From assembly GCA_049287045.1 (NCBI GenBank), contig JBAQFC010000010.1, positions 78,179 to 142,178 on the forward strand: a stretch of 64,000 bases of DNA, written 5' to 3'. Shown piece by piece: positions 2,563 through 19,780 of this stretch. The stretch is from Minisyncoccia bacterium (GTDB lineage: Bacteria > Patescibacteriota > Minisyncoccia > Phycocordibacterales > UBA9973). The notes under the pieces are model-generated. The model had not been told where the DNA came from. It made no database searches and was given only the letters and a program-made list of their open reading frames with translations. Within the stretch, counting starts at the first letter, position 1; each line of letters starts with the position of its first letter. A program made the position numbers and the translations under genes.

Positions 2563-2835
2563 ATGCCAACAGAAAAAACTTACCCCTATACATTCGACCA
2601 GTTAAGACAATTCAAAAAAGAAATACAGGAAGCAGGAGGAGTAGATGAACTGATGTTCAGAAAAAGTGCTTTGAAAAGAAGAAACGGAATGATAAACATT
2701 GTTACCTATCCTGATATTGAACGATACAAAGAAAAATATTTAACAGGAGTATATGAATCACTTCGTCCTATTTATACAACAGAAGTACCTTATGTTTTCT
2801 GGAGTAAATTATACGAATTATTAAACAGAATATGA
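2563..2835 (+). CDS. Hypothetical protein.
   Basis: ORF. Its 4-nt overlap with the downstream methylase gene suggests translational coupling. Confidence 0.4.
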   Translation: MPTEKTYPYTFDQLRQFKKEIQEAGGVDELMFRKSALKRRNGMINIVTYPDIERYKEKYLTGVYESLRPIYTTEVPYVFWSKLYELLNRI

Positions 2836-3623
2836 AACCACCTTTAACATACTACGGAGGAAAACAACAGCTCTCTAAACACATTATTTCCCTTATACCT
2901 AAACACAACCTATATTGTGAACCTTTCTTTGGTGGTGGTGCGGTATTCTTCGCTAAAGAACCATCAGCAGTTGAAATAATCAACGATACCAATGGAGAAC
3001 TCATTAATTTTTATAAGGTTATCAAAACAAAATTCAGCCAGCTTGAAAAAGAAATCAGTTTGACACTACACAGCAGGGAATACCATCAGGCAGCAAAGAT
3101 TGCATTAGGTTACCCCCATTTGTTTGATGAAATAAAACGGGCATGGGCTGTTTGGACATCGGCAAACCAAAGCTTTGGTTCCATTCTCGGCGGTAATACC
3201 TGGAGATGCGATTTTAAACAAAATACTTCTGCCAGGCAGTTAAGAAATAAAAGAGAAAACTTCACTAACGAATATGCAAAACGATTAGAACAAACCCAGA
3301 TTGAATGCAGGGATGCTTTAGATGTTATTCGTTTAACAGACAACAAGGATACTTTCTTTTATATTGATCCGCCTTACTATAACTCTAATATGGGGCATTA
3401 TAAGGGATATACAAAAGAGAATTTTGAAAAATTACTTCAAGTGCTTTCCGGAATTAAAGGAAAATTTTTGTTAAGTTCCTACCCCTCTGAAATCCTTGAT
3501 AAGTACATCAAAAAACACAAATGGCAGACTAAAGAGATTGATAAACAGTTGTGTTTATCTGCTTATAAGATTGTGAAAAAGAAAAGAAAAATTGAGGTGC
3601 TGACGGGGAATTATGAGATATAG
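2832..3623 (+). CDS. dam: DNA adenine methyltransferase, Dam/D12 class (N6-adenine). Orphan, with no adjacent restriction enzyme.
   Basis: 'YYGGKQQL', 'EPFFGGGAVFF' (SAM-binding FxGxG) and catalytic 'DPPYY'. Confidence 0.85.
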   Translation: MKPPLTYYGGKQQLSKHIISLIPKHNLYCEPFFGGGAVFFAKEPSAVEIINDTNGELINFYKVIKTKFSQLEKEISLTLHSREYHQAAKIALGYPHLFDEIKRAWAVWTSANQSFGSILGGNTWRCDFKQNTSARQLRNKRENFTNEYAKRLEQTQIECRDALDVIRLTDNKDTFFYIDPPYYNSNMGHYKGYTKENFEKLLQVLSGIKGKFLLSSYPSEILDKYIKKHKWQTKEIDKQLCLSAYKIVKKKRKIEVLTGNYEI

Positions 3624-3980: not shown

Positions 3981-4856
3981 TTATTTATTTTTGGATTTAT
4001 GACTATTTCTGATACAAATTATATCATAGATTCCGTCTGCTACACCCTGCAATATGGCTAAATCATATTTCTCGTCAAACATACTTTTTTCAGAACAATC
4101 GACACACAGGAAACCTAATAAGTTATAAACTTTGTCTTGTTCAATATGTAATGGAATTATAGGCACCACAAGTTCACTTTTATATGGCAATATGCCATCT
4201 ATATAGCATTCTTTGCTTGTGTTTTCATAGTCCTTTGAGGAAGGAATATCATTATTAATATAGTAAAGTTTTGATTTCTTGTTTTTAGTTAGATGGGATA
4301 AGATATTATTGAAACATGTATTTGCAAATATTAAATGTTGAGTGTTTTGATAAGTTTTAGTATCACGGTGTAACGAATTTTTATCTCTGCATAGATTTAC
4401 AACTTCGGTATTTGCTGTAATTACAGTCTCGATGGCGACTTTTATAGAAACTGAACATTTTGAATTCGTTTTTTTATCATAAATCAGTTTTAATTGGTGG
4501 CACATAAAAGCCATAGTTGCAATAAATTTATCATCAGGAATTTCATCAAGTTTACGAAGCCAGTGAACCCATGAAAACGCTTCTTTGAGGAAAATTATAG
4601 CATCACCATAAACACTCTCTTTGTATAGATAATACCAATACTTGTATATATGTTTAAAGAAAAAAAGGACAAATCGGAAAAGGTATATTCCCAAAACGCC
4701 TCCTAGTCCAATAACAATAGAATTTTGAGGTTTTTGATCAAAAAAATTCTTTGCAATAAGAAGAATAGCAATAACTGAACCCGCCCCTCCACCAATAAAA
4801 TTCCAAAATTTTTCAGATATAGTATCCTTAAATGATTTATAAAAAACTTCTCTCAT
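3981..4856 (-). CDS. Membrane protein with two N-terminal TM helices and a cytoplasmic C-terminal domain.
   Basis: Hydrophobic segments 'GGGAGSVIAILLIAKNFF' and 'IVIGLGGVLGIYLFRFVLFFF'. No recognisable catalytic motif. Confidence 0.45.
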   Translation of the reverse strand: MREVFYKSFKDTISEKFWNFIGGGAGSVIAILLIAKNFFDQKPQNSIVIGLGGVLGIYLFRFVLFFFKHIYKYWYYLYKESVYGDAIIFLKEAFSWVHWLRKLDEIPDDKFIATMAFMCHQLKLIYDKKTNSKCSVSIKVAIETVITANTEVVNLCRDKNSLHRDTKTYQNTQHLIFANTCFNNILSHLTKNKKSKLYYINNDIPSSKDYENTSKECYIDGILPYKSELVVPIIPLHIEQDKVYNLLGFLCVDCSEKSMFDEKYDLAILQGVADGIYDIICIRNSHKSKNK

Positions 4857-4952
4857 AATCTTATAATCCGCTTTTTTTGCAAGGTTGTAATTTTTTTTTA
4901 TTGATTGACATATTGTTAATAACTCGGCGGGTTATGTTAACATCATATTTAA

Positions 4953-4990
4953 AAAATGCCTCCCGATTTCTCAGGAGGCATTGATGATGC
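4953..4990 (-). terminator. Hairpin terminator, copy B of the repeated hairpin family.
   Basis: Perfect 9-bp stem AATGCCTCC/GGAGGCATT with loop CGATTTCTCA, followed by T6 on the minus strand. Confidence 0.55.
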
Positions 4991-5019
4991 AAACCGCTCA
5001 ACCATGGCAACATTCACTC

Positions 5020-6243
5020 TTACGATTTTGCAATCAACTTTTTAAGCAGATTGATTACTTCATTCAACTTCTCGGCATTATCTATAATAATGGTGCAACT
5101 TGGGCCATTCCAGAATTTCTGAACTTTCTCCGTGAGTGTTTTAATCTCATGGTGCTTAATGTTCTTTCTTGTTTCTGCTTCCGGATTTACAACAACCAGG
5201 GAGATTCTTTTTCTACCGATGCTCATAAACGCAAGATTTTTGTTCTTCCGGATAGAGATATAATACTGCTTTGGGTTAAACTGAACCAATTCATCAGCTT
5301 TCATCAATTCAGTTTTAATCTGGCTATAAATATCAAGGATTACATCGGAAACATCTTTTAAATGGTCTTCCTCTGTGGATTTAAGAACTTTTTCTTTCAC
5401 TTTATCCGTTCCTTTATCAATATCTGCGAAATCAGGGTATATAGTACATAAGGTTTGCCGATTGATTGAGAATTTTCTCAATACTATCGGTTTTATTAGT
5501 CTCCCCCAGGTATCAATATAAACCTGCATAATTTCCGGCAGTTCCTGAATAGTATCATCTGTGATTAATAAAACAGGCGGTTTACCTGTAAGAACACGAT
5601 TGATAAATTCTGGAACCTCTTCTTCTCCAATAAAGGATTTTAACTTCTTTTTGAAATGGTAATTCTTGTTAACTATTTTACAAATAGGTTCAATAAAGGA
5701 AGTCTGTAAGTCTTTGTTACTAATCTGTTTGAAAAATTCAGTCATTCGTGTGAAAAGATGCCCATAGAAATCTTGTTTTGAAAGCATTGTTTCAATTAGG
5801 TAACATTTGGGTTTTCCCATGTCTTTAAAGTCAAACAGGATAGCATCAGGGATATATGTACCTGAAAACTCAATGCCTGTTTTAACTCTTGTTTCAATTA
5901 GAAGGGTAGTATCACCGAAAAGCACTTTTCCATTTTGTAAAATAATTTCTTCAAATTCCTTTTTTGATTTGAATTTCTTCGCAACAGGTGAAGTTTGATT
6001 TTCATCAGCATCAAAAGGTGGTTCAGTTGTTTGTAATTCCAGTGTATCTCCATTAAGGATATACACTTTGCTTAAATCAATTACCGTATCCGGCAATTGA
6101 TTTTTAATCTGTGTTTCTGTTTTTTTCATGGTTAAGGGTTTGGTTATTATTTTTTCAAAGAGCGAACTAGTGGACATCATAGCTCTGAAAAAATAATTGG
6201 CAAGAAGGAAATCAGTAGAATACAGAATGGCGAAAATGTCCAA
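5020..6243 (-). CDS. Hypothetical protein. True start may lie downstream of the annotated Met.
   Basis: Long ORF with its own terminator. Weak PD-(D/E)xK-like pattern '...IPDAILFDFKD...CYLIETMLSK', not secure. Confidence 0.45.
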   Translation of the reverse strand: MDIFAILYSTDFLLANYFFRAMMSTSSLFEKIITKPLTMKKTETQIKNQLPDTVIDLSKVYILNGDTLELQTTEPPFDADENQTSPVAKKFKSKKEFEEIILQNGKVLFGDTTLLIETRVKTGIEFSGTYIPDAILFDFKDMGKPKCYLIETMLSKQDFYGHLFTRMTEFFKQISNKDLQTSFIEPICKIVNKNYHFKKKLKSFIGEEEVPEFINRVLTGKPPVLLITDDTIQELPEIMQVYIDTWGRLIKPIVLRKFSINRQTLCTIYPDFADIDKGTDKVKEKVLKSTEEDHLKDVSDVILDIYSQIKTELMKADELVQFNPKQYYISIRKNKNLAFMSIGRKRISLVVVNPEAETRKNIKHHEIKTLTEKVQKFWNGPSCTIIIDNAEKLNEVINLLKKLIAKS

Positions 6244-6666
6244 TTATAAGGAGGCAAATTAAAGTAGGAACTATACTCTCAAAAATGAAGTTTTAATTTT
6301 TTTAAATCCATGAGGAGCCAATATTAATTATAAAGATTTTTGTTATTTTTAATAAAAAATATTTTAAATTGCATTGGATTAAACTTATTGGCAACTTGTT
6401 GCACAAATTGTTCATTTAATGGTTGCCTACAAAATGAAAATAGAAAAGAAAGAATGATACTTTTCTTTTGGCAATAATAATCTTTTGTAAATCTAATTTG
6501 AGTTTATTTAGCTTTAACTTTCGACTCTTGTTTCTTTGGAACTGAATGGAATTCATGTTTTTTATTCATTCTAAGTACAATAAACATATCTTGAGACTGA
6601 TAATATGACTACCAAATGCTTACACACTAATTTTATTAAATATTATTAAAATAAAAATTCAAAATT

Positions 6667-6939
6667 ATGAAACTTACCAAAATTTACTTTGATGCATTCA
6701 AAAGCCTATTGAACAAAGAACTTGAAATTAAATATGATTGTGTCGGATTTGTTGGAACAAATGAATCAGGAAAATCAAATGTATTATCTGCAATTAATGT
6801 ATTGAGCAGTAATAGAAAATTGACTTCTTTAGACACGCCTAAGATGTCTAAAAGCAGTAATCCATCCTTAAGATTTCAATTTAAACTTGATGAGAATGAA
6901 AATAAAGAAATAACAACACTAGCGTTGCGTTGTTTCTAA
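6667..6939 (+). pseudogene. N-terminal Walker-A fragment of an OLD-family/AAA15-type ABC ATPase. Likely the disrupted 5' part of the downstream nuclease gene.
   Basis: 'VGFVGTNESGKSNVLSAI' is a P-loop. The ORF stops after 90 aa, too short to be an ATPase alone. Downstream 6940-7289 is AT-rich with stops in all frames. Confidence 0.45.
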
Positions 6940-7289
6940 ATTCTTAAAAACCATCAAATTTTTGAAAAATTAATTCTTAAGAATCAAGTACTTGTGAAAT
7001 AATAAAATTAATTATTAAAAATAAAATTTCAAATCGTTGCTGTTAGTAAAACCTGTAAATCTAAGTCATATCAAGCTTTCTAAAGAGTTTGTTATTATAA
7101 CATCGCAATGCTAGTGAAATAACAACATTAATTTCCGAATGGAAAAAAACACACTCACTCCATCCGAAAGCAATATTTTCGACTTTAACAATTATTTACC
7201 ATGTAACATTTGACAAGGAAAAAAAACAAGAGGAACGTTTCTTTTCAATAAATGATTTAAAACTTGAAAGTGATAGTTTAATTTTATTA

Positions 7290-9425
7290 ATGCCAAAAGT
7301 AAATGATTCATATAAAATCAATGTTGGAGCCTCTTTTTTGCCACTTGAGAAAGCAATTATAATTAAAGACTCCAATGTTTTCATTGATAATAAACACCAC
7401 GAAACTTATATTGAAATAGAAAATATTTCTGAACTAATTACAGAAGAAGAAACTGCAATAAAAAGTTTTCAAGAAAAACTATTTAATTTGCCAATTGACT
7501 CTGATACGAATCCTGTTGAAAATAGCTTGACTCCAATTCAAGAAATCAGCCCTGAAACAATTAAATTAGTTGCTCCAAATGATATTCAACCAGGTTTACT
7601 GAAAGAAGAACGAGAATTAATTGCCGCTGAAATTATCAAGAGAAGAGCAAAAATTGAATTATTATTACGAAGTAAAAACAATTTATTTTTAAAAATTAAA
7701 GATTTTGATTCTGCCACCATTATTGATTCTGCCTCTACCACAATTTCAAAGGCAGATTCGGAAATATTAAGACTTGGAACAGAGCTCAAAACGACCGAAG
7801 TAAAACATAATGAATTGAAGGCTTTACCAACTCCCGATGAACTTCAGAAAGTTGAGTTAACGAATTCCACACAAACCATTAATGATATTAAATTAAAAAT
7901 AAAGGATTTTGAGAACAAGAAAGTTGAATCTCAAAAACTTGTTGATGATCTAAAACAGCCTTTAATCGAAAAATATACAAAAGACATTTCTGAACTTCAC
8001 AAACATATATATGGCTTAATTCAAATTCCATTAATGAATTTTTTACCAAAAATTGTTTATTGGGAACATGGTGCAAAATATATATTGCAATCTGAGACAT
8101 TGTTTACGGAACTCCTTAATAAAACAAGCTTAGAAGATATTTCCAGACCACTTGTAAATGTTTTTAGAATCGGGTTGTATATTCATACAATCGAGGAACT
8201 AAAAGAAAAAATCATTGAAATCCAAATCGACCCTGGTGAGCGAAGCAGATATGAAGCTACTTTAAATGAAAAAATTAACAAGTATATTAAAAAAGTCTGG
8301 TGTGATTATGACCAAGATTTAAAAATTTCATTGGAAAAAGACCAAATTCGAATTCAAATTTTTGACCCAAGTAAAAATGGTGCAAGTTTCTATAATATGG
8401 AAGATAGAAGCCAAGGATGTAAAACATTTTTGTCTTTTTTATTAACTATTGGTGTAGAAGCGGAACATGGTGTAATTAAAAACACGATTCTTTTGTTAGA
8501 TGAACCAGAAACACACTTGCATCCTTCGGGAGTGAGATTTATGCTTCAAGAACTAATTAAAATATCAGAAAAGGGTAATTTAGTCATCTACGCAACCCAC
8601 TCGATATTTTTAATTGATAGAAATAAATTTGATAGACATGTTATTCTTAAAAAAGAAAAAGAGAATACTACTATTAAACCATCAAATGTTGGAAGAATTG
8701 GTTATTTCATGCAAGAGGAGGTATTGTATGGCACATTGGATTTCAATTTAAAAAATGATTTTTCATCTACAAATGAATATAATTTTGTATTCGAAGGCGA
8801 TGGGGATGTTATTCTCTTTGAACATTTTTATGACAAAATTCTTTCAAAAGATGCAAATAGACCTTATCAATTAAAATCAACTTCTTTCCATCAAGGAGGC
8901 AAATGTTCTGACATCCAAAAATATTTAACCAATAGACCAATTCAACTCGGAACAAAGTGGGTTTTTATCTTAGATAAAGACAATGCTGGAGATGGTCTTA
9001 AAAAATTCATAGAAGGAAAATATAAAAATTATTTAAATAGTGACATTTTTGTATTTCAATATGACAATAAGGGGAAGAAATCAAAAGAAATAGAGTTAGA
9101 GGATCTTTTTGCCCCACAATTTATAATAGAAACATATTTAGAGACTGCAAAACAGCTTACTTGTTCAATTGATGAAATCGCTTTAAAAAAACTTGTAACT
9201 GAAGATGACAATTATATTACTTACAATGATTCTATCATTTCAGATCATATTATTGGAGAAAGGAAGTCTGAATTTAAAGGAAAATTTAAAGAAATATTTA
9301 ATACAAAAATTAAATTAAGTTGTGAAGGGAATAAAAATGAGGTGAGTTTTAAAAAAATATTTCCGGAATATTACAAATGGGTAACAGAAGTTACTGCGAA
9401 ATTAAATTCCTGCAACAAAGCATGA
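7290..9425 (+). CDS. OLD-family ATP-dependent endonuclease: ABC-ATPase signature, Walker B and H-loop plus C-terminal TOPRIM. No Walker A in this ORF.
   Basis: Signature-like 'RSQGCKTFLSFLL'. Walker B 'LLLDEPETHLHP'. H-loop 'YATHS'. TOPRIM-like 'VFEGDGDV' and 'ILDKDNAGD'. Confidence 0.65.
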   Translation: MPKVNDSYKINVGASFLPLEKAIIIKDSNVFIDNKHHETYIEIENISELITEEETAIKSFQEKLFNLPIDSDTNPVENSLTPIQEISPETIKLVAPNDIQPGLLKEERELIAAEIIKRRAKIELLLRSKNNLFLKIKDFDSATIIDSASTTISKADSEILRLGTELKTTEVKHNELKALPTPDELQKVELTNSTQTINDIKLKIKDFENKKVESQKLVDDLKQPLIEKYTKDISELHKHIYGLIQIPLMNFLPKIVYWEHGAKYILQSETLFTELLNKTSLEDISRPLVNVFRIGLYIHTIEELKEKIIEIQIDPGERSRYEATLNEKINKYIKKVWCDYDQDLKISLEKDQIRIQIFDPSKNGASFYNMEDRSQGCKTFLSFLLTIGVEAEHGVIKNTILLLDEPETHLHPSGVRFMLQELIKISEKGNLVIYATHSIFLIDRNKFDRHVILKKEKENTTIKPSNVGRIGYFMQEEVLYGTLDFNLKNDFSSTNEYNFVFEGDGDVILFEHFYDKILSKDANRPYQLKSTSFHQGGKCSDIQKYLTNRPIQLGTKWVFILDKDNAGDGLKKFIEGKYKNYLNSDIFVFQYDNKGKKSKEIELEDLFAPQFIIETYLETAKQLTCSIDEIALKKLVTEDDNYITYNDSIISDHIIGERKSEFKGKFKEIFNTKIKLSCEGNKNEVSFKKIFPEYYKWVTEVTAKLNSCNKA

Positions 9426-9569
9426 GTCCAAAATTGTATTTCAGAACTATTCGGTGAACCCCAATAAAATGTTCATGATTAAGCAAAATTCAGAAGAGAT
9501 ATTGCAGAAGAGCAAGGATTAATTTTCAAATAGGGTTAGCAAATAGTTTCCAAAAAGAGGTTCCACATT

Positions 9570-11264
9570 TCATTGTAATAAAGATCGCCAATAATAAGGG
9601 AAAACCATTGTCCTATAATGTCGAGATGCAAGGAGCCCCATAAAAGGGAGTCCGTTTTTAAAAATTTCCAGTTCTAATTCAGGGCTTAAATTCTTCATAG
9701 AAATTTCTTGAACCATCTCGTCCTTATAGTCTTCTATGTTGTCATATAGTTCAATACTGTGTTTCGTTTTTCCGTGATTTTGATCTGAATTTTTAATGAA
9801 AAGTGATTTTTCAATTTCAATATCAGGATACCAGAGCTGGAGATTGATTTCAGGAAAATGTAATTTTACCATTCTCCGAATATCACTATATAAATCGGAT
9901 GAATTTAAAATTATACACCATTCAGCTAATACGGTCAATAAAATTGATGATTGAGGTTTTTCGGTTTCACCATAAACCTTTGCTTCAATTAATTTATCAT
10001 GGTTTTCATAAAATAATGGAAAAAAACTTGTTCTTGAATAAGTTATTTCCATTGTAATTATTATTCGCTTAAGCCATATCCTTATTGTATCTAAGCGATC
10101 TGTTTTATATAAAAATAAAAATCCTAAATTGATTTCTATGGAATGTGAATCATAAACTGGATAATTGCAACCAGCGTTGTTATTAATAAATTCGTCGATA
10201 GAATTTGAAAAAACTGAAATCATTGAATTAATACTATCCACATGAAATTTAATTACATCATTATTATCTTGAACTTTTAGGGTTTCCCCCAGGTAATAAT
10301 AATTTAATCCAATCGTTGACATAATACCAATATATTCGTAGCAAACTAAACTATACTCAGTCTGGTTTGCCCTAGACACGCTTGCAAACGAATCTTTAAC
10401 AGCGCAATATTTTATTGTTTTCTCGGCATACGAATGTTGGATATTTATGAGAGTTTCAGTTATCCCAATAAATTGTCGAATAAGTTTATTGTCATTCATA
10501 CCATGTTCCTCTAAAATAAATCTCCAGGCGAGCAAAGTCGCTTTTTCAGCAGTGAGCAAGGCATTCCTAATATTATTTTGTTCTTGCGCCCATACGAAAA
10601 TTATATTTGTACAAACATTGAGCAAACTTAATCTTTTATATTTTTCAGAAGTCTTAGCTTGAACAGATTTGTATTTAAATAAAATGTTATTAAAAAGTTC
10701 AACCACATGAGATAAATCATAATCACTAATGTCAATGAAAGCAAGGGACTTTCTTAGCAAAAGCAAAGAACTATCGGGGAGTAAGGATTCATTAAAAAGA
10801 TATTGTTCGGATAATAATGTTATTTTGTCTACATCCCAATCTACTAAATGGATTTTTTTCGTCGAATTTTTATTTTTATATCCATTCCATGCCGGAATTG
10901 CAGTCTGCTCAATAATTCCATTAAGAGCGAAAATAATTTTGATTGGTAGCTTTTTATATTCTTTTGCAATATTCGAGGGGATATATACATCAAATATATC
11001 ATCTAAGCTTGCTTTAATATCATTTTTACCTGAGTTCCAATTATTCCGGTCTAGATTACCTCTTTTCACTGAAAGTAAAAATATTTTTTTTATACCATCT
11101 TCTGGATCAATTCCAACGGCCATAATATCTACGCCATGTTGGCGGCCCTTTTGAGGGCGTGATTTGGGCTCCATATTCATATGAAACAATAGATTTACTA
11201 GTAGGGTATCTAGCTCACCATCTTCTTTCAAAATTGTTATATAGTCCTTAATAATTGCTTTCAT
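9570..11264 (-). CDS. Hypothetical 564-aa protein, second gene of a two-gene operon. N-terminus has a possible Mrr/PD-(D/E)xK-like fold.
   Basis: 'GRQHGVDIMAVG...KKIFLLSVKRG' resembles the D...(E/Q/S)xK nuclease core. ATGA start/stop overlap with the upstream gene at 11264. Confidence 0.45.
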   Translation of the reverse strand: MKAIIKDYITILKEDGELDTLLVNLLFHMNMEPKSRPQKGRQHGVDIMAVGIDPEDGIKKIFLLSVKRGNLDRNNWNSGKNDIKASLDDIFDVYIPSNIAKEYKKLPIKIIFALNGIIEQTAIPAWNGYKNKNSTKKIHLVDWDVDKITLLSEQYLFNESLLPDSSLLLLRKSLAFIDISDYDLSHVVELFNNILFKYKSVQAKTSEKYKRLSLLNVCTNIIFVWAQEQNNIRNALLTAEKATLLAWRFILEEHGMNDNKLIRQFIGITETLINIQHSYAEKTIKYCAVKDSFASVSRANQTEYSLVCYEYIGIMSTIGLNYYYLGETLKVQDNNDVIKFHVDSINSMISVFSNSIDEFINNNAGCNYPVYDSHSIEINLGFLFLYKTDRLDTIRIWLKRIIITMEITYSRTSFFPLFYENHDKLIEAKVYGETEKPQSSILLTVLAEWCIILNSSDLYSDIRRMVKLHFPEINLQLWYPDIEIEKSLFIKNSDQNHGKTKHSIELYDNIEDYKDEMVQEISMKNLSPELELEIFKNGLPFMGLLASRHYRTMVFPYYWRSLLQ

Positions 11265-13189
11265 TAGTTCAATGATTCGTATCTCATTCTAGAACGGAAT
11301 ATTTCAAAGCCTGCTGGATCAATATATTCAGCCCTTGGCATTTCAAAACTGAAGTTTACCGACCGCATACGGCCTTCATCTGTATAACCTTTGCTATTTT
11401 TTGAAAACCAAATTGGCCCTGATCTCAAAACTATATTTTTTGCTAACTGCTCAAATATATTTTCCTTACGTGCTGTATTCATCCTTTTTGATTGCTGGTT
11501 ATCAAAAGCATTATTAAAACTACGTTTTCTTGTTTCAGAACCATTTAATTCTTTTAAGATTGGTAAATCTTTTAGATCATCATAATACTTATCTACTCTA
11601 TTAACAATTCTTTGTAATAATTTCTTTTTAGTTCCCTTACTAATACTAATTTCTGGTTTGATGAAAACAGTTAATGTAGAAGGATATGTATAGCATATAT
11701 AATCTACGAATAAAGTTTCTAAATTATTTGCTTGCTGTTTTAAATGTTTAGAATCTAATATTGATAGCGTTAAAGATGCTAATGGCTCCTTTGCATATAT
11801 AAATCCCATTATGCTTCCAATAGTCTTTCCAATTTCTAAATCAGAATAGGAGTTAAGAATCACACAATCTAGTTTAAAAATATTCTTACCTTTTCTAGAC
11901 GTAATACTCATTAATGCATTCATTAAGTTTTTATCAGAACGGTTAAACCATGGTGTAATAATTGAGCAGAACCAGGGAAAATAACTCCCTATAAATTTAG
12001 ATATTATAGGTTCCAAGCTATTGATTTCTTGTCCATTTACTAGCCATGATTCTAAAAGTTTTACGACATATTCCTTTTCACCCATTTTAAGGGCATCTGT
12101 CATGTGCCAATTTACAAAATTCATAAGCTTTATATTGTCACATTTATAAGAAGATAAATTAAATGCAAGCTGTTTAATATTTTCAGTGGAGTTTTTATTT
12201 GAAGCTGAACGCCAAACAAATTCTGAGATTGGATACCTATAAGAAATTTCTTCTTTTTTTGAAAGTTCTATCAATTTCCTTTGTGAATCAAGACAAAATT
12301 TTGAAAGTGTTATAAGGCTGTATGTTACCATATATCTAATACTCTCTCTCTCATCATTAATAAAGACAATTATGTTATCGTATAAAGTTTGAGCAGTTTT
12401 AGTATTGTCTTTATAATCTAAACTACTAATCATTTGCAGCCCTGCGATTATATTCTCAATTTTATTGGTCTGTAAAAGATCTAATATTTTATCCTGAAAA
12501 ATTTTTATGTTTTTATATTTATAAAGTCCCTCAACTAAAGCACCTAGATATTTAAGGATAACTTCGTTTTTAGGTAAGAATAAATTTTCATAAAGTGTTT
12601 CAGCAAAACTAAGATTCAAATTAGGTATGTCTTTTAACAAGGTGAAAATCTCGTTTTCGGCTCCATCACCTGTAGTTTTTAAGCTAATAAACTTTAGAAT
12701 TTCACAAAACTCCTCGATTGAAAGATTAAGATAAGGGTAAACATTAATAAAACTATGGTAATTTGCCCAAAAATCATTTTTAGGATCGGTTAGAATATCG
12801 ATTATTTTTTTCTTTTTGACTTTGTTTAAAAGAAAAGTAAAATATTCAACTACATATTCTGGTTTCATTTTAAACCTATTATCGAACTTTAGCTTATTAA
12901 GTTGATTGAAGATTTCGAGATGATTACTTGTTTCAACTTTGGACAAATAATATGCAGCAACGAAAAAATTAATAACAGCTGTATTGCAAAAAATTAATTT
13001 TGAATCTTGTTTTGTGACAAATGGAGGGAAATCCTGAAAGTCTTTACTGTTTTTTTTGATTGAAATAAAAGAATCTCCCTTTTCAAAACATTGCATAGCA
13101 TATTGCCCCAATAATTTTGAATTGTCGGAACATTTTCCAACATAAGAAACTAGAACTTCAAGTTCTGATTTGGTAAAAATTAAAATCAT
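11264..13189 (-). CDS. Hypothetical 641-aa protein, first gene of the two-gene operon. Alpha-helical repeat-like, no P-loop.
   Basis: Long ORF. No Walker A/B, nuclease or other motifs recognised. Confidence 0.45.
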   Translation of the reverse strand: MILIFTKSELEVLVSYVGKCSDNSKLLGQYAMQCFEKGDSFISIKKNSKDFQDFPPFVTKQDSKLIFCNTAVINFFVAAYYLSKVETSNHLEIFNQLNKLKFDNRFKMKPEYVVEYFTFLLNKVKKKKIIDILTDPKNDFWANYHSFINVYPYLNLSIEEFCEILKFISLKTTGDGAENEIFTLLKDIPNLNLSFAETLYENLFLPKNEVILKYLGALVEGLYKYKNIKIFQDKILDLLQTNKIENIIAGLQMISSLDYKDNTKTAQTLYDNIIVFINDERESIRYMVTYSLITLSKFCLDSQRKLIELSKKEEISYRYPISEFVWRSASNKNSTENIKQLAFNLSSYKCDNIKLMNFVNWHMTDALKMGEKEYVVKLLESWLVNGQEINSLEPIISKFIGSYFPWFCSIITPWFNRSDKNLMNALMSITSRKGKNIFKLDCVILNSYSDLEIGKTIGSIMGFIYAKEPLASLTLSILDSKHLKQQANNLETLFVDYICYTYPSTLTVFIKPEISISKGTKKKLLQRIVNRVDKYYDDLKDLPILKELNGSETRKRSFNNAFDNQQSKRMNTARKENIFEQLAKNIVLRSGPIWFSKNSKGYTDEGRMRSVNFSFEMPRAEYIDPAGFEIFRSRMRYESLN

Positions 13190-13220
13190 TCCAATTATAA
13201 TTGAATTACTACAAAACTAA

Positions 13221-13248
13221 TAAAAAACCCCCACATTTTGTGTGGGGG
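13221..13248 (-). terminator. Intrinsic-terminator-like hairpin in the 5' leader of the minus-strand operon (possible attenuator).
   Basis: 8-bp GC stem CCCCCACA/TGTGGGGG with TTTTTTA on the minus strand. It lies 32-60 nt upstream of the 13189 start codon. Confidence 0.35.
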
Positions 13249-13505
13249 CGGTCTTTCAGAGAATTATCCCTGCCCTGATACGATTTCAAATAAATCATAC
13301 CCGGTAAAAGCTATTATAACTCTGGTTTTTAAATTTGCAAGTGAGGAGAAATAACTTTCAAAAAACATTTCTCTAATCTTCCTAAAAGTCATTTAAAATG
13401 ATCTGAATATGTGAAAATAAAAGGTAATTTTGAAGAAGATATTGAAAAATCGATGAGTTCGTTAATCTTTTATAAATAAAATTATTGCAAAAATTACAGC
13501 ATCAA

Positions 13506-13612
13506 AAAAAACCGCACCAAAACCGTCTACGCCAAAACCTATTCCTAATTGGCCTAGCAAAAACCTTGGCAAACCTTCGGGTCAAAGACGAGGCAAGGTA
13601 AATAGAATTTAC
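13506..13612. repeat. Cluster of imperfect direct repeats 'GC(C)AAAACC(T)', iteron- or operator-like.
   Basis: 'accaaaaccg', 'gccaaaacct', 'gcaaaaacct' and 'ggcaaacctt' sit within a locally GC-richer stretch of the divergent intergenic region. Confidence 0.3.
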
Positions 13613-13688
13613 TAATCTTTAAAAGGTCTGATTATTCTGATCTTTTTTATGAATCGGCTATTTTTATCCACAATTAAATTAATCAGTT

Positions 13689-16600
13689 ATGGGAATTATG
13701 ACTACAGATAAATGCTTTATTACTTCTTTGCCTGTTAAAAATATTCCATCCAATATTGATGCTTATGAGTATTTACTAAATTTTAATGACAGAGAATTTA
13801 CTCTTCGATATGATGGGAGAGCAGACTGGAATACAATAATAAAGGGAGATGCAAAGATTGTTCTCCAATCAATGTTATTTAATAACCGATGGCCTATTGA
13901 TACTGATTCTGTTATTACTCCGGAATTGGTTGAAAGAACCCTTCGTATTGTAAAACACCCAAAAGAATTTGAAGATAAAGTATCTTACTATTTAGAATAT
14001 GCATATGAAGCGGGTGGAAAAGAATATAATGCTGTTATTTATAAACTTTCTGATTATGAGATCGCCTACTCAAAAGATGAGAACGAATTTACTAGAATAA
14101 TTCAGGCACTCATCTCAAAACAATTTATTTCTCTTCTTCCTGCACACTCAAGTTCAGTTAAGGCAGAGGGTTCATTTGAATTGTTGGAGCCGGGGAGAGA
14201 TATGGTTAAAAATATTCAATCAAAAAGGCAACCAAAGATTATTACTATAACCCCTACGGGGAAAAAAATCATAAAAAAAATACACCTACCTCTTAACGAA
14301 CGTCCATCTATTCATATATGTTTTGTAGAATCGGATAAACCCATTGCCGAAAAACTCAGAGATCTTTTTTTAGAAAATAGCTTTACTACTTCATTAACAG
14401 AAATAAAAGAGGAAACATTGGCCTACTCAAGTGTATTTAATCTTAGAGATAGTATTGAACAACGAAAATCAAATTATTTTGTTTTTGTTAAAAGTCACTC
14501 GTCTGATATTAATAATGGTATAGGAAGTGCTATTGATATTGCTATTGCAACACATAGAAATTCCCCCGACAAAGCTAGATTTATATACATTGCGAGTGCA
14601 GATGATAGCAAATACAGCACAAGACCGTTATTAGAGGATTATTTAAAACAATTTTTTGATATCAGAATATTGGATGAGAGGGAAAGAATGCTTCTTGACA
14701 TATTCTCTGATTGGAAGACCAGACAGAACAAGATATTACCAGCAGAAAAACTAACTTCAACAGTCTTGCTGCTCAAATGGTTATGGAAAATATTTACTGT
14801 TTCGCAGAAAAATCCAATAACTATTACTTATTCTCAAATAAAAGAATTTATTAGTTCGGAAGAACAATTAAAATCATTCTTATCGGAACTTGAAAATCAA
14901 CAGCTCATCACAATGCAATTGTATGATGGGCTTGACGTTGATCAATATCGGTATGAGATCACACTAATGAATAATATACCTGATTGGCTGAGTAGGGAAA
15001 TTTCAAATATAGAGCAGTCTAATGCTGGGAAACTGAAAAGTATCAACGAAAGCAATAAAGTCTATAACTTTCCGAAAGTTTCACTTACAGACAATGAATT
15101 ATTTTGGTTGAAAATTTCGTATGAGAAATTTCTTAAGAATGAAACATTTAATTTGCATGAAGAACTTGCAAAACACTGGGATAAACTCCCAAAAGATTTT
15201 GACCCATCTCAGATTGACCAACGTCTTTTGATAGGTGGTTATACAATAACATTGCTTGGTATCTGGCACGTAAATCCTTCCTCTGAAATTTTTGGAAATA
15301 CTGACAAAACAATATTTATTATTCGTGAATTGCTTATAGAAAAAAGTAATCGGAATGTTATTACATCTAAAGATATTCAAGCTAAAAATTCTGCCTTAAC
15401 CAATGATGACATATTAAAAAGCATAACAATCCTTTCACAGTTCAGGGGTTTCATGCATCAACATGGACACAATCCAGAAACGTTTGAGTCTAATATATCA
15501 ATACGTGATGGTTCAAGTTATGATAAGTTCAGGCAGTACAATGGAATTGAAGAATTAGTGAATGAATTTTTTAAAAAGAATAAATCACAGTATTCTGATT
15601 CAAATGAAACAAACCAAAGCACAAAAGAATTTAAATTGAAAAATATAGTGGATTCTTTGAATTTAAATGATAGAGCATTTCAAAAAAAATCTCAAGTCAG
15701 TTTACGAGACAAAACACAAATCGATACTATATTAGGAGTCAAAGAAATTGCTAAAGAAATAGCTGAGATAATTGACATAATGCCAAATGAAAAAGGAATG
15801 ATGATGGGTATCTTTGGCAAATGGGGACGTGGTAAAACAGTTTTTATGTCTCAAATATGGGAAAACTTAAAGGAAATAAAGTTAAAAAACGAGGTACAAT
15901 ATGAAAGAGTGGATTTTCATGCATGGCAATATCAAGAAACCCCCGCTTCTTGGGCTTATTTGTATGAGCGTCTGGCAGAAAAATATTATAAAAAACCTGA
16001 AAAAATATTCACAAAAGATTGGTGGGAATATTGGAATAGGATTATAAAGCTAAATATTAAAAGGCAAGGATACACTCCCATTATTAAATCGATTTCTGTC
16101 ATTTTATTTGCTCTCTCTATTACAATTGGAGGAATAGCGCAATGGGAATGGGTATTTGCATTAATTGGTATTCCGATGGTTGGGTCAGCACTGATTGTAA
16201 TACTTTCAAAATTTAAAAAAGAGTATAGCACTAAGGCGTTTGATTTAATTAAAAAATATGGATTAAAGCATAGTTATAAGGATACTATGGGCATCCAAGC
16301 TGAAATTCAGAAAGAGGTTGTTCATTTAGTTAAAACATGGATTCCTGTGGTGAAGGTTGAAAAAGGCAGCTCGGATGAAAAGTATAAAAAAATAATTTTA
16401 TTTGTGGAAGATGTTGATCGTTGTGCTGAGGAAAAAATAATTCAAAACATAGATGCCCTGAGAATAATGTTGGAAGATGAAGAAGTAGCAAAGAGAGTTA
16501 TTGTAATTGCTGCTATTGATGAGCAAGTATTAAAAAGGGCGATCAAGGCAAAATATTTTAAACTTTTGGATTGCGAAAATTATTCTAACGGAGCGGGAAC

Positions 16601-17318
16601 AAATAAATTTGATGAACTTGCCAAGTTAACAAATGAATACTTAGACAAACTTTTTATAACAGGAATAAAACTTGGCACCCTGTCTGCGGAGCAACGGGAC
16701 GAATTTGTTGTTGAATTGACAAAACATGATAGACAAAATCTTTCAGTAAAAAAACTTTATGAAGATGAATTCCCTTCAGCGAGGTCAGAAAATAATGATC
16801 AGTTGGATTTTGCCACCATTGATGGAGATTTGGTATTTAAAGACGGGGATATTGCTCTCGAAAACCAAAAAGGGGAGATTAAAATAATTGAGCAGATACA
16901 AAAAAATAAAACCGTTACGCTTGAAAATTCAACTGAAACTGTAGCTTTTGAGAAACTGACAGATGGAGAAATAAGTATACTTAGAGGTTGTGTTAATGAT
17001 TGGGACGAAGCAACTCCAAGAAAAATTAGAATATTCTATTATCGGTATCTGATAGCAAAAAATTTATTACTAAATCGATACCAAAAACTAAGTTGGAAAA
17101 ATATATGGCTTCATCCGAAATACAGTAGCGTATTTGCCCAGCTTATTATTAAGTATGGTGAGTTATATAACCCTTCTCTAATCACGGAGCATAGATTGAG
17201 GACAAACACTTTGCCACTTAATGAAGTTGTAAAAATTGATATGTTTGGTGACTTTACCGTGAAAAACCAAGATTATATTGAAATGTTGAAAATTTTAGAA
17301 ATGGTAATTGCCTATTGA
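13689..17318 (+). CDS. KAP-family P-loop NTPase (1209 aa) with intra-domain TM helices and a long N-terminal extension containing a possible TIR-like segment.
   Basis: Walker A 'GKWGRGKT'. KAP-type Walker B 'ILFVEDVDRC'. TM insert 'ISVILFALSITIGGIAQWEWVFALIGIPMVGSALIVIL'. N-terminal 'SIHICFVESDKPIAEKL...NYFVFVKS' is flavodoxin/TIR-like (weak). Confidence 0.75.
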   Translation: MGIMTTDKCFITSLPVKNIPSNIDAYEYLLNFNDREFTLRYDGRADWNTIIKGDAKIVLQSMLFNNRWPIDTDSVITPELVERTLRIVKHPKEFEDKVSYYLEYAYEAGGKEYNAVIYKLSDYEIAYSKDENEFTRIIQALISKQFISLLPAHSSSVKAEGSFELLEPGRDMVKNIQSKRQPKIITITPTGKKIIKKIHLPLNERPSIHICFVESDKPIAEKLRDLFLENSFTTSLTEIKEETLAYSSVFNLRDSIEQRKSNYFVFVKSHSSDINNGIGSAIDIAIATHRNSPDKARFIYIASADDSKYSTRPLLEDYLKQFFDIRILDERERMLLDIFSDWKTRQNKILPAEKLTSTVLLLKWLWKIFTVSQKNPITITYSQIKEFISSEEQLKSFLSELENQQLITMQLYDGLDVDQYRYEITLMNNIPDWLSREISNIEQSNAGKLKSINESNKVYNFPKVSLTDNELFWLKISYEKFLKNETFNLHEELAKHWDKLPKDFDPSQIDQRLLIGGYTITLLGIWHVNPSSEIFGNTDKTIFIIRELLIEKSNRNVITSKDIQAKNSALTNDDILKSITILSQFRGFMHQHGHNPETFESNISIRDGSSYDKFRQYNGIEELVNEFFKKNKSQYSDSNETNQSTKEFKLKNIVDSLNLNDRAFQKKSQVSLRDKTQIDTILGVKEIAKEIAEIIDIMPNEKGMMMGIFGKWGRGKTVFMSQIWENLKEIKLKNEVQYERVDFHAWQYQETPASWAYLYERLAEKYYKKPEKIFTKDWWEYWNRIIKLNIKRQGYTPIIKSISVILFALSITIGGIAQWEWVFALIGIPMVGSALIVILSKFKKEYSTKAFDLIKKYGLKHSYKDTMGIQAEIQKEVVHLVKTWIPVVKVEKGSSDEKYKKIILFVEDVDRCAEEKIIQNIDALRIMLEDEEVAKRVIVIAAIDEQVLKRAIKAKYFKLLDCENYSNGAGTNKFDELAKLTNEYLDKLFITGIKLGTLSAEQRDEFVVELTKHDRQNLSVKKLYEDEFPSARSENNDQLDFATIDGDLVFKDGDIALENQKGEIKIIEQIQKNKTVTLENSTETVAFEKLTDGEISILRGCVNDWDEATPRKIRIFYYRYLIAKNLLLNRYQKLSWKNIWLHPKYSSVFAQLIIKYGELYNPSLITEHRLRTNTLPLNEVVKIDMFGDFTVKNQDYIEMLKILEMVIAY

Positions 17319-17988
17319 TTTAAACAAAAAAGTTTTGAATTCTATCTTAAAATTTAAACAAATGAAAGTTTTATTATCCTCATATTATCCATTACGTCAT
17401 ACCGCTGAAGGCAAAAAGGCAGTGCAATTGCATGAGCTAAAACCTTATATTGATGGATCATGTAGAAGAGAACCGGATTTTGAAAGTAAATTGCCAAGTA
17501 TTACTTCTTTATGTAGAAAAGAAAAACTTATTGGAAGATTAGATGAGGGTGATATTGTCATTTATATTACTAATGGTGGAAAGGGTAGGCGAAAATTAGT
17601 TGCTATTCTTGAAGTGTTTAAAATCTTTGATTCTCATATTCAAGCTGCGACATACTTTAATAGCGTTGGTATAGTACTACCAAATAACTGTATTGTTGAC
17701 GGGAATTTATGCAAGCCATATAACCAAACTCATGGTATGGTTAGTTGTTACAATGAATGGGGTAATATGGATATAAACTTGTGGGATGCAGAATATAAAA
17801 AAAGAGCAAGAGACTTAGGAAAATTTGCTATTTGCAAAGTATGGAAAAACGAACTTGAGTTAAATAAGCCGAGAAATATATCAAACAAAGAGTTAACAAA
17901 AATATTTGGAAGAATACCAGGAACCATGAACCCACCTAAACTAACAGATGAAGAATGGGGGAAATTTAAAACGTGGTTAGGTAAATAA
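17308..17988 (+). CDS. PUA-like (EVE/ASCH-like) domain protein, overlapping the KAP NTPase gene by 11 nt.
   Basis: 'GDIVIYITNGGKGRRKLVAILEV' resembles the EVE/PUA beta-core. Overlap suggests translational coupling. Confidence 0.35.
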   Translation: MPIDLNKKVLNSILKFKQMKVLLSSYYPLRHTAEGKKAVQLHELKPYIDGSCRREPDFESKLPSITSLCRKEKLIGRLDEGDIVIYITNGGKGRRKLVAILEVFKIFDSHIQAATYFNSVGIVLPNNCIVDGNLCKPYNQTHGMVSCYNEWGNMDINLWDAEYKKRARDLGKFAICKVWKNELELNKPRNISNKELTKIFGRIPGTMNPPKLTDEEWGKFKTWLGK

Positions 17989-17989
17989 A

Positions 17990-18025
17990 AAAAATCACAC
18001 TCAAAATCACACTCAGGATCACACT
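17990..18025. repeat. Three tandem 12-nt repeats 'AAAATCACACTC' (third copy AGGATCACACTT).
   Basis: Direct reading of the sequence. Related copies lie at 18195-18219 on the other side of the tRNA-like fragment. Confidence 0.7.
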
Positions 18026-18053
18026 TGGAAAATAGAGGTCGGCTAAAAAAATT

Positions 18054-18080
18054 AAAACCCCTTGAAAATCAAGGGGTTTT
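18054..18080. terminator. Bidirectional rho-independent terminator.
   Basis: Stem CCCCTTGA/TCAAGGGG with loop AAA, flanked by AAAA/TTTT. T-runs follow on both strands (stronger on minus). Confidence 0.6.
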
Positions 18081-18082
18081 GT

Positions 18083-18122
18083 GTAGCGAAAAGGGGAGTT
18101 GAACCCCTGACCTCAGGGTTAT
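18083..18122 (-). other. tRNA-like 3' fragment (T-arm plus acceptor 3' half). Candidate attachment-site remnant of the adjacent integrative element.
   Basis: Minus strand reads ...CAGGGGTTCAACTCCCCTTTTCGCTACAC. T-stem GGGG/CCCC with T-loop TTCAACT, then a 7-nt acceptor strand, then the terminator. No complete cloverleaf could be folded upstream. Confidence 0.4.
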
Positions 18123-18194
18123 GAAACGAGCAAGAACCCCTGTATTTGCTGTAAACAGGGATACAAAAGTTGACAAATAGCGACAAAAACGAAC

Positions 18195-18219
18195 AAAATC
18201 ACACTTAAAAATCACACTT
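18195..18219. repeat. Two further copies of the 'AAAATCACACTT' repeat.
   Basis: Direct reading. Same motif and orientation as 17990-18025. Confidence 0.65.
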
Positions 18220-18351
18220 TGTCTTATACTGAAATAACTATATAGGTTTGGGTTAATTACTAAAATAGTGATACACTGTTTTTTATTTTACTGAAATAGC
18301 TATACAGTGTAAAAAAACTTCGCTAAAACTACTATATCTTCTCTCTCTTTG

Positions 18352-19656: not shown

Positions 19657-19671
19657 AGCCTCTTTTCGGAA

Positions 19672-19692
19672 TGGAATTCGTGGAATTCCATG
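19672..19692. promoter_or_regulatory. Operator-like palindrome ATGGAATTC-gtg-GAATTCCAT just upstream of the minus-strand start codon at 19656.
   Basis: Perfect 9-bp inverted repeat with 3-nt spacer, read directly. Confidence 0.3.
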
Positions 19693-19780
19693 TATTCCTT
19701 GTCTAAGTAAATTGTTGTCTTTATTCTCCCACTATCATTGCATTGTGAAATGTGAATATTAAAATAAAGATACAAAAAAA

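What the first reader, a model, noticed from the sequence alone, without database searches (positions are those of the whole stretch)
6667..9425. OLD-family ATPase-TOPRIM nuclease gene apparently split by a 350-nt AT-rich insertion
The Walker A P-loop is encoded by a 90-aa ORF (6667-6939) that ends in a stop. After about 350 nt of AT-rich sequence with stops in all frames, a 711-aa ORF in a different frame supplies the ABC signature, Walker B (LLLDEPETHLHP), H-loop and a C-terminal TOPRIM (EGDGD, DKDNAGD). This is the single-polypeptide OLD/Gabija-GajA/PARIS-like ATPase-TOPRIM architecture. The insertion starts with an inverted repeat (ATTCTTAA...TTAAGAAT). The gene is therefore either a fresh pseudogene, a gene interrupted by a small insertion element, or an assembly/frameshift artefact. 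Inactivated toxic defence nucleases are themselves informative about island turnover.
Basis: partly seen in the sequence, partly recalled or inferred. Interest (0 to 1): 0.55.

Follow-up and report, generated by a model that had tools for sequence, protein, structure and literature searches.

The report
Defence nuclease gene broken by MITE
A single-gene OLD-family (ATPase plus TOPRIM nuclease) anti-phage defence gene has been cut in two by a 200-bp miniature transposon derived from an IS4-family insertion sequence, which is an ordinary way for a defence gene to be switched off.

Summary
ORF1 (6667-6939) and ORF2 (7290-9425) are two pieces of one 849-codon gene. The interruption is not about 350 nt. 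It is a 200-bp element (6917-7116) with 18-nt terminal inverted repeats (CACTAGCGTTGCGTTGTT / AACATCGCAATGCTAGTG), flanked by a perfect 9-bp target-site duplication (AAATAACAA, 6908-6916 and 7117-7125). The ORF2 frame is open from about 7101. Removing the element and one duplication copy restores a protein that aligns gap-free across the junction with about 38 intact homologues of 805-849 aa.

The same termini occur in at least 120 genome loci, almost all Bacteroidota. There they bound roughly 1.31-kb IS4-family insertion sequences (397-aa DDE transposase) and 172-202-bp derivatives, and most complete copies have 9-bp duplications. An independent assembly (Logan, SRR28062869) reproduces the insertion exactly.

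The verdict is a recently inactivated, class-1-like OLD nuclease gene in a defence island next to Olokun. It was hit by a non-autonomous IS4 element (a MITE). This is ordinary biology and of low interest.

Side note: the contig is labelled Minisyncoccia but looks Bacteroidota.

The parts
6667..6916 (+). 5' piece of the OLD-family gene (codons 1-83 plus the first base of codon 84). Walker A GTNESGKS is at residues 30-37 (about 6754-6777). The called ORF1 runs on to 6939 by reading 6 foreign codons (LALRCF*) from the MITE.
   Evidence: the N-terminus aligns with intact homologues from M1 (21/21 identical to P0002)
6908..6916 (.). Left copy of the 9-bp target-site duplication, AAATAACAA
6917..7116 (-). 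200-bp non-autonomous IS4-family element (MITE), 25% GC, with no ORF. The end homologous to the transposase-upstream (left) end of the parent IS lies at the right, so the element is on the minus strand relative to the IS.
6917..6934 (+). Terminal inverted repeat, CACTAGCGTTGCGTTGTT
   Evidence: (I1)
7099..7116 (-). Terminal inverted repeat, CACTAGCATTGCGATGTT on the minus strand (16/18 identical to the other arm)
7117..7125 (.). Right copy of the 9-bp target-site duplication, AAATAACAA
7126..9425 (+). 3' piece of the OLD-family gene (last two bases of codon 84, codons 85-849, and the stop). The only in-frame start after the break is ATG 7290 (residue 139), which gives the called 711-aa ORF2. 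Walker B LLLDEPE is at about 8490-8510 and the H-loop at ATHS. TOPRIM covers about 8772-9065 (E640 at 8793; D700-x-D702 at 8973-8981).
9570..13189 (-). Neighbouring Olokun defence system (OloB 9570-11264, OloA 11264-13189). This is context showing the OLD gene sits in a defence island; it is not part of the broken gene.
   Evidence: OloB E=1.3e-139; OloA E=3.2e-54

Best explanation
One 849-codon gene for a single-polypeptide OLD-family protein was hit by a 200-bp non-autonomous derivative (MITE) of an IS4-family insertion sequence. The protein has an N-terminal ABC-type ATPase with a long inserted coiled coil and a C-terminal TOPRIM nuclease.

The parent IS is about 1.31 kb and fits the IS4Sa subgroup by size, CA...T ends and 9-bp duplication. 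A transposase supplied in trans from a full-length copy elsewhere in the genome cut and pasted the element into codon 84, duplicating 9 bp of target (inferred from the footprint).

The insertion shifts the frame (209 nt) and brings a stop six codons in. The cell can therefore make only two products:
- an 84+6-aa Walker A stub;
- at best, a 711-aa product from Met139 that lacks the first beta-strand and the P-loop of the ATPase.

Both ATPase and TOPRIM activities are needed for OLD function in vivo in studied members, so the defence gene is most likely off (inferred). Everything else in the gene is intact, so the event is recent.
For: - Restoration: deleting the element plus one duplication copy gives an 849-aa protein. 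It covers 99-100% of intact homologues of 805-849 aa at 42-60% identity and shows no gap at the junction.
- Conserved residues: the window protein retains every invariant residue of the 41-sequence alignment, including G30/K36/S37, D542, H575, E640, G641, D644 and D700.
- Termini: the shared pattern CACTAGCRTTGCGWTGTT occurs twice in the window, in inverted orientation 200 bp apart, against 0.00 expected.
Of the 80 listed, about 75 are Bacteroidota, and many hits lie 40-140 nt from contig ends.
- Size classes: 20 loci hold complete elements of 1309-1330 bp (and one of 1116 bp), and 6 hold complete 172-202-bp elements, one of them counted on both strands.
- Transposase: the long elements encode a 397-aa protein. 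It scores 241.9 bits against NCBIfam transpos_IS4_1 (cut-off 115) and matches Pfam DUF4372 and DDE_Tnp_1. Relatives on plasmids are annotated as IS4 family transposase.
- Duplications: 14 complete elements in other loci, long and short, have a perfect 9-bp duplication, as does the window copy.
- Homology beyond the fished termini: the element's right-hand 90-125 nt are 68-76% identical to the transposase-upstream ends of the IS copies, with conserved blocks.
- Subgroup: IS4Sa features are 1150-1750 bp, CA------T ends and direct repeats of 8-10 bp (PMC2266710, Table 1).
- Independent assembly: Logan contig L123 (SRR28062869) equals window 4620-7299 at 100% identity with no gaps.
- OLD identity: PADLOC Old E=2.2e-25; Pfam AAA_15 and AAA_21 above cut-off. 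The AF2 model has pLDDT 85.5 and gives full-length Foldseek alignments to TsOLD 6p74 and to GajA 8u7i, 8x5i and 8sm3.
Against: - No second copy of the element and no IS4 transposase lies in the 64-kb window. The autonomous partner in this genome is therefore unseen.
- The nearest relatives of the element are only 62-76% identical, so this exact subfamily has one known copy.
- No empty-site allele was found (the nearest intact homologue is 60% identical). The pre-insertion sequence is therefore inferred, not observed.
- Loss of function is inferred from sequence only.
- The Pfam OLD-like_TOPRIM match is below its cut-off (15.8 against 23.2 bits).
Confidence: 0.92

Rival explanations
1. Reversible off-switch. 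The MITE is a tolerated, revertible interruption. Rare precise excision by replication slippage between the 9-bp direct repeats, helped by the hairpin the inverted repeats can form, would restore the intact nuclease gene. Part of the population could then re-arm a toxic defence gene.
For: - A perfect 9/9 duplication and 16/18 pairing termini are present.
- The element folds as a long terminal stem, z = -3.6.
- The rest of the gene shows no decay.
- Precise excision of Tn10 and Tn5 by this route is established knowledge (my own recall, not checked here).
Against: - Precise excision is normally very rare, and nothing here shows it happens.
- The Logan contig runs through both junctions without a break. 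This argues against an abundant empty-site subpopulation in that sample.
- An intact remainder is equally expected from a merely recent insertion.
Confidence: 0.04
2. Assembly, chimera or frameshift artefact. The gene is intact in the organism, and the extra 209 nt were introduced by the assembler or by a mis-join.
For: The window comes from a metagenome-assembled genome, and read-level data could not be inspected.
Against: - An artefact would not create 18-nt inverted termini shared with an IS4 family in at least 120 other genomes, nor a perfect 9-bp target duplication of the length typical for that family.
- An independent assembly is identical across the region.
Confidence: 0.01
3. Two natural genes. 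6667-6939 would be an unrelated small P-loop gene, and the 711-aa ORF a complete protein with its own start.
For: Gene callers and NCBI annotate the 711-aa ORF as 'AAA family ATPase'.
Against: - All of the roughly 38 full-length homologues begin with the ORF1 sequence (MKLTKIYFDAFKSLLNKELEI...) and carry the only Walker A there. None starts at the position of Met139.
- The 711-aa ORF has no Walker A.
Confidence: 0.01
4. The interruption is removed at the RNA or translation level (a small self-splicing intron, or ribosome bypassing between the matching AAATAACAA repeats), so a full-length protein is still made.
For: The matched 9-nt sequences at both edges resemble take-off and landing sites. 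The 200-nt size is near that of the smallest group I introns.
Against: - No Rfam family matches the region, even at E up to 10.
- All features are those of a DDE transposon footprint, and the same element family sits in intergenic DNA elsewhere.
- 25% GC with a simple terminal stem is not an intron-like fold.
- No bypass of about 200 nt is known (my own knowledge).
Confidence: 0.02

Closest known systems
MITEs derived from IS4-family insertion sequences (IS4Sa-type subgroup; De Palmenaer et al. 2008, PMC2266710)
   Same: It has 18-nt terminal inverted repeats starting CA with T at position 9, and a 9-bp target duplication. It has no ORF. Its ends, plus about 95 nt of sub-terminal sequence, are shared with 1.31-kb elements that encode a DDE (DDE_Tnp_1) transposase scoring above the NCBIfam transpos_IS4_1 cut-off.
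   Different: This 200-bp version is only 62-76% identical to the other short and long copies recovered. It carries about 70 nt of extra AT-rich internal sequence. Its autonomous partner in the same genome was not seen. I could not check ISfinder for a name.
Class 1 OLD family nucleases (P2 Old; Thermus scotoductus OLD, PDB 6P74; Vibrio cholerae class 1 OLD, PMC12392090)
   Same: [quoted passage not shown] Neither this copy nor the two homologues examined has an adjacent helicase, retron or AriB-type partner. PADLOC 'Old' is the best-scoring model.
   Different: It is about 850 aa against about 520-590 aa. In place of the compact dimerisation domain there is a four-helix coiled-coil insert of roughly 200 residues (165-360), so SMC and Rad50 heads are the top Foldseek hits. 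Sequence similarity to 6P74 is marginal (E=8e-5). It sits in a defence island, unlike the description of class 1 in PMC10568477. Here it is a pseudogene.
Gabija GajA (class 2 OLD) and PARIS AriA
   Same: The ATPase core is the same, and for GajA the ATPase-TOPRIM order as well. There are PADLOC hits to the GajA, AriA and AriAB models and Foldseek hits to 8SM3, 8U7I and 8X5I.
   Different: There is no GajB-like UvrD helicase and no AriB gene next to it. The downstream genes are on the other strand and are Olokun OloB and OloA. Scores are lower than for the Old model.

Membership tests
IS4-family non-autonomous element (MITE) | Terminal inverted repeats matching those of an autonomous IS | tested here: met
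   The pattern common to both window termini bounds 21 complete long elements (1116-1330 bp); the two inspected (L001, L019) each carry a transposase ORF. Homology extends about 95 nt into the IS left end.
IS4-family non-autonomous element (MITE) | Target-site duplication of the family's characteristic length | tested here: met
   A perfect 9-bp AAATAACAA flanks the window copy. Fourteen other complete long and short copies also have perfect 9-bp duplications. IS4 subgroups give 8-13 bp (PMC2266710).
IS4-family non-autonomous element (MITE) | Small size and no transposase ORF | tested here: met
   The element is 200 bp with stops in all frames.
IS4-family non-autonomous element (MITE) | The parent element encodes an IS4-family DDE transposase | tested here: met
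   L001:1596-2789 scores 241.9 bits against NCBIfam transpos_IS4_1 (cut-off 115) and matches Pfam DDE_Tnp_1 at E=3.4e-25. PGAP annotates plasmid relatives as IS4 family.
IS4-family non-autonomous element (MITE) | Multiple copies and an autonomous partner in the same genome | not testable with these tools
   Only 64 kb of the genome is available. It holds no second copy and no transposase. JGI metagenome scans found no sibling.
OLD family nuclease | N-terminal ABC-type ATPase with Walker A, signature/Q region, Walker B and H-loop | tested here: met
   Pfam AAA_15 (35.1 against 32.1 bits) and AAA_21 (54.1 against 27 bits) pass their cut-offs. G30, K36, S37, D542 and H575 are invariant and E543 is nearly invariant. 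This holds only after the two pieces are rejoined.
OLD family nuclease | C-terminal TOPRIM domain with a conserved Glu and DxD | tested here: met
   E640, G641, D644 and D700 are invariant and D702 is nearly so. The model shows a beta-alpha-beta-alpha pattern over residues 635-728. The PADLOC Old alignment spans 529-705, and Foldseek gives full-length alignments to 6P74 and GajA. Caveat: Pfam OLD-like_TOPRIM is below its cut-off (15.8 against 23.2 bits).
OLD family nuclease | Nuclease and ATPase activity; phage defence | not testable with these tools
   This needs biochemistry or genetics. Here the gene is disrupted.
Class 1 OLD (single gene) | No adjacent UvrD-like helicase (class 2), retron RT and ncRNA (class 3), or AriB (class 4) | tested here: met
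   The neighbours are a DUF5655 protein upstream and Olokun OloB/OloA on the opposite strand. Homologues P0008 and P0033 have unrelated neighbours. Class definitions come from PMC10568477.
Class 1 OLD (single gene) | Size and compact dimerisation domain as in TsOLD and P2 Old | tested here: not met
   The protein is 849 aa with a coiled-coil insert of about 200 residues. SMC and Rad50 heads are the top Foldseek hits.
Gabija (GajA/GajB) | A GajB helicase gene adjacent | tested here: not met
   No helicase gene flanks the locus.

The most novel reading that the evidence does not exclude
The contig may truly belong to a Minisyncoccia (CPR) bacterium, as NCBI labels it. In that case a Bacteroidota-type mobile defence island would have crossed into a CPR genome, complete with type IX secretion (T9SS)-tagged proteins, Olokun, this coiled-coil OLD nuclease and a Bacteroidota IS4-derived MITE. 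That would point to Bacteroidota as the physical partner or host of that lineage. Separately, the 849-aa coiled-coil OLD clade could be an undescribed OLD class.
Probability: 0.07. Interest if true: 0.6.

Novelty: new member of a known kind. Interest (0 to 1): 0.2.

Why it matters
In itself it matters little. Insertion sequences and MITEs knocking out costly or toxic defence genes is a familiar route of defence-island turnover.

It is useful in three practical ways:
- It corrects the annotation. The deposited 711-aa 'AAA family ATPase' is the tail of a pseudogene, and the true protein is 849 aa.
- It defines a widespread Bacteroidota IS4/MITE family by its termini, which also explains many contig breaks in Bacteroidota MAGs.
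- The element, together with T9SS sorting domains and Shine-Dalgarno-poor leaders, flags a 165-kb contig as probably mis-binned into a Minisyncoccia MAG.

Tried and rejected
- Other copies of the element in the window: blastn found none.
- Rfam over 6300-7600 at E up to 10 gave only noise, with no intron or riboswitch.
- The similarity between the gene's own upstream region (6642-6665) and the interior of the element (7011-7034, 83% over 24 nt) looked at first like a duplicated promoter. I rejected it as AT-rich low-complexity resemblance.
- An empty-site or near-identical allele in JGI metagenome contigs, using a 28-nt exact probe just left of the insertion: 0 hits.
- Sibling MITE copies, using a 24-nt exact probe across the left terminus: 0 hits.
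- Look-up of the 711-aa product in the contig index: not on record.
- The ROK kinase homologue search meant to settle taxonomy was uninformative; the best non-self hit is 41% identical.
- An outward promoter from the MITE driving ORF2: the IS-left (transposase-upstream) end points away from ORF2, and I saw no convincing Bacteroidota -7 motif. I did not pursue it.
Full report
**Observation**

The ORF list confirms a 90-aa ORF at 6667-6939 that carries the P-loop (GTNESGKS). It also confirms a 711-aa ORF at 7290-9425, in a different frame, with LLLDEPETHLHP, ATHS, FEGDGD and LDKDNAGD.

Translating the three forward frames across 6940-7300 shows stops in every frame up to about 7100. The ORF2 frame, however, is open from about 7101, well upstream of its first ATG at 7290. 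It reads ...EITTLISEWKKTHSLHPKAIFSTLTIIYHVTFDKEKKQEERFFSINDLKLESDSLILLM. There is no ATG, GTG or TTG in that frame before 7290.

**Anatomy of the interruption**

The repeat search found a direct repeat with a start-to-start spacing of 209 nt (GAAATAACAACA, 6907 and 7116). It also found a long inverted pair, 6898-6934 with 7099-7135 (D7 and I1).

Read in detail, the element runs from 6917 (CACTAGCGTTGCGTTGTT...) to 7116 (...AACATCGCAATGCTAGTG) and is 200 bp long.
- Its 18-nt termini are 16/18 identical.
- It is flanked by a perfect 9-bp direct repeat, AAATAACAA, at 6908-6916 and 7117-7125.
- The degenerate pattern common to both termini occurs exactly twice in the 64-kb window, against 0.00 expected from shuffles.
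- The element is 25% GC, against 29% for the gene.
- As a single strand it folds into a terminal stem formed by the inverted repeats (z = -3.6).
- No Rfam family matches it.

It is one of many weak AT-rich pairs.

**It is one gene**

Removing the element and one copy of the 9-bp repeat yields an 849-codon ORF.

A search of 5.8 billion proteins returned the 711-aa ORF itself, labelled by NCBI 'MAG: AAA family ATPase [Minisyncoccia bacterium]' on a 165,015-bp contig. It also returned about 38 full-length homologues of 805-849 aa, which cover 99-100% of the restored protein at 42-60% identity.

In the alignment the homologues start at the ORF1 methionine; the first 21 residues are identical in P0002. 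There is no gap at the junction (KEITT|LISEWKK), and W89, just after the junction, is nearly invariant.

In a 41-sequence alignment the window protein keeps every invariant position, including G30, K36, S37, D542, H575, E640, G641, D644 and D700. The gene shows no other damage.

**What the element is**

Of the 80 listed, about 75 are Bacteroidota MAGs (Chitinophagaceae, Bacteroidales, Prolixibacteraceae, Flavobacteriales and others). Many hits lie 40-140 nt from a contig end, which is typical of a multi-copy element that breaks assemblies.

Looking for the second terminus downstream gave two size classes:
- complete elements of 1309-1330 bp in 20 loci, plus one of 1116 bp;
- complete elements of 172-202 bp in 6 loci.

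The long elements carry one ORF of about 397 aa. It scores 241.9 bits against NCBIfam transpos_IS4_1 (cut-off 115) and contains Pfam DUF4372 plus DDE_Tnp_1. Its plasmid-borne relatives (46-52% identity) are annotated as IS4 family transposases such as ISGme2-like and ISPosp4-like.

Fourteen complete long and short elements in other loci have perfect 9-bp flanking duplications, the same length as in the window.

Similarity is not confined to the 18 nt used as bait. The right-hand 90-125 nt of the window element are 68-76% identical to the transposase-upstream ends of the IS copies. A multiple alignment shows conserved sub-terminal blocks (TTCTTTGAAA..CTTGATA and CGATTTGAA) shared by the short elements and the IS left ends.

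Size (about 1.3 kb), CA......T ends and a 9-bp duplication fit the IS4Sa subgroup in the published IS4 classification (PMC2266710, Table 1).

The element is therefore a MITE: the two ends of an IS4-family IS without the transposase. The window holds no transposase and no second copy, so mobilisation must have come in trans from elsewhere in the genome. That step is inferred.

**It is not an artefact**

The index of independent Logan assemblies holds a 2,680-nt contig from run SRR28062869 that encodes exactly the 90-aa ORF1 product. It equals window 4620-7299 at 100% identity without gaps. It therefore runs through the left flank, the whole element, both duplications and 174 nt of downstream coding sequence.

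A second Logan contig equals window 7843-20733.

That the first contig does not break at either junction also argues, weakly, against an abundant empty-site variant in that sample.

**What the gene is**

The restored protein passes Pfam AAA_15 and AAA_21. Its match to OLD-like_TOPRIM is sub-threshold (15.8 against 23.2 bits). Its best PADLOC model is Old (E=2.2e-25, alignment through residue 705), ahead of AriA, GajA and others.

An AlphaFold2 model built on the 41-sequence alignment has a mean pLDDT of 85.5. It shows an ABC head, a roughly 200-residue four-helix coiled-coil insert (165-360), and a C-terminal beta-alpha-beta-alpha domain at 635-728.

Foldseek against the PDB ranks SMC, cohesin and Rad50 heads first because of the coiled coil. 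The longest alignments (776-913 columns) are to T. scotoductus OLD (6P74) and to Gabija GajA (8U7I, 8X5I, 8SM3). By sequence alone, 6P74 is only a marginal hit.

There is no helicase, retron or AriB gene beside the locus. Two intact homologues on long contigs are also solitary, with unrelated neighbours. Under the published context-based scheme (PMC10568477) this is class-1-like. It is unusually long, and it sits in a defence island rather than standing alone.

**Consequence (inferred)**

The 209-nt insertion shifts the frame and truncates the N-terminal product at 84 native plus 6 foreign residues. The only downstream start gives a 711-aa protein without the first strand and the P-loop of the ATPase.

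In studied OLD proteins both ATPase and TOPRIM residues are needed in vivo (PMC10568477). The gene is therefore most likely inactive. The intact remainder and the perfect duplication indicate a recent event.

Precise excision between the 9-bp repeats could in principle restore the gene. Nothing here shows that it does.

**Context**

Immediately downstream on the opposite strand lies a complete Olokun system (OloB E=1.3e-139, OloA E=3.2e-54).

The wider window carries:
- a KAP/QatA-like NTPase, a tyrosine recombinase, a VirD4-like coupling protein and a TrlF/Ppl-like ATPase;
- ArdC and a Dam-type methyltransferase.

This is a mobile defence island.

**Taxonomy caveat**

NCBI labels the contig Minisyncoccia. 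Four observations point instead to Bacteroidota, and so to mis-binning rather than a CPR origin:
- Two window proteins carry T9SS type A sorting domains above cut-off.
- Neighbours of the OLD homologues do too.
- The MITE family is overwhelmingly Bacteroidota.
- Only 4 of 40 ORFs have even a 4-mer Shine-Dalgarno-like motif upstream.

The ROK-kinase search did not settle the question.

**Verdict**

The finding is an ordinary MITE knock-out of a defence gene. The element family and the long coiled-coil OLD clade are new members of known kinds. Interest is low.

Noticed in passing
window 9570-13189 (- strand): A complete Olokun anti-phage system sits next to the broken OLD gene: OloB (564 aa, E=1.3e-139) and OloA (641 aa, E=3.2e-54), with overlapping start and stop. 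Neither protein has any Pfam domain.
   Followed up: partly
whole window; 29940-32768 and 34988-37546: NCBI labels the contig Minisyncoccia (CPR). Yet two proteins have T9SS Por_Secre_tail sorting domains above cut-off, leaders are Shine-Dalgarno-poor (4 of 40 ORFs), and the MITE family is Bacteroidota. This suggests a mis-binned Bacteroidota contig or, less likely, cross-phylum transfer.
   Followed up: partly
restored protein residues 165-360 (window about 7368-7955): This OLD clade has a four-helix coiled-coil insert of about 200 residues where TsOLD and GajA have a compact dimerisation domain. SMC and Rad50 heads are therefore the top structural hits. The loop at 208-240 is disordered. It may be an undescribed OLD subclass.
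   Followed up: partly
window 13689-17318 (+): A 1209-aa protein carries a KAP-family NTPase domain (Pfam, from the Logan record). It also has a weak QatA-like match, far below cut-off. It is probably another defence ATPase.
   Followed up: no
window 21176-29165: There is an integrative/conjugative element-like gene set: a tyrosine recombinase (21176-22603), a VirD4-like coupling protein of the CD1115 family (25379-26833, 228 bits against a cut-off of 250), and ArdC with a zincin peptidase (28194-29165). A Dam-type D12 methyltransferase lies at 2832-3623.
   Followed up: no
window 48230-50548 (-): A 772-aa AAA-like ATPase resembles TrlF, Spaf_1101 and the anti-phage protein Ppl. All matches are below cut-off.
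   Followed up: no
window 5020-6243 (-): A 407-aa protein upstream of the OLD gene has a C-terminal DUF5655 domain and matches the PADLOC candidate PDC-S18 at E=4e-12.
   Followed up: no
window 53433-53468 (-): A DUF805b RNA motif (RF02914) sits just at the gathering score (35.7 against 35.6 bits). It lies in a 3-kb stretch (53047-56057) with no ORF of 150 aa or more.
   Followed up: no
window 7300-7842: The two Logan contigs from SRR28062869 end at window 7299 and 7843. The 543 nt between them, inside the OLD coding sequence, are in neither contig. The reason is unknown and could be strain variation or low coverage.
   Followed up: no
loci L005, L059, L060 (genome-contig hits): A few hits to the IS4 terminus lie in MAGs labelled Micrarchaeia, Chania and Burkholderiales. 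These may also be mis-binned Bacteroidota contigs, in which case the terminus could serve as a contamination marker.
   Followed up: no
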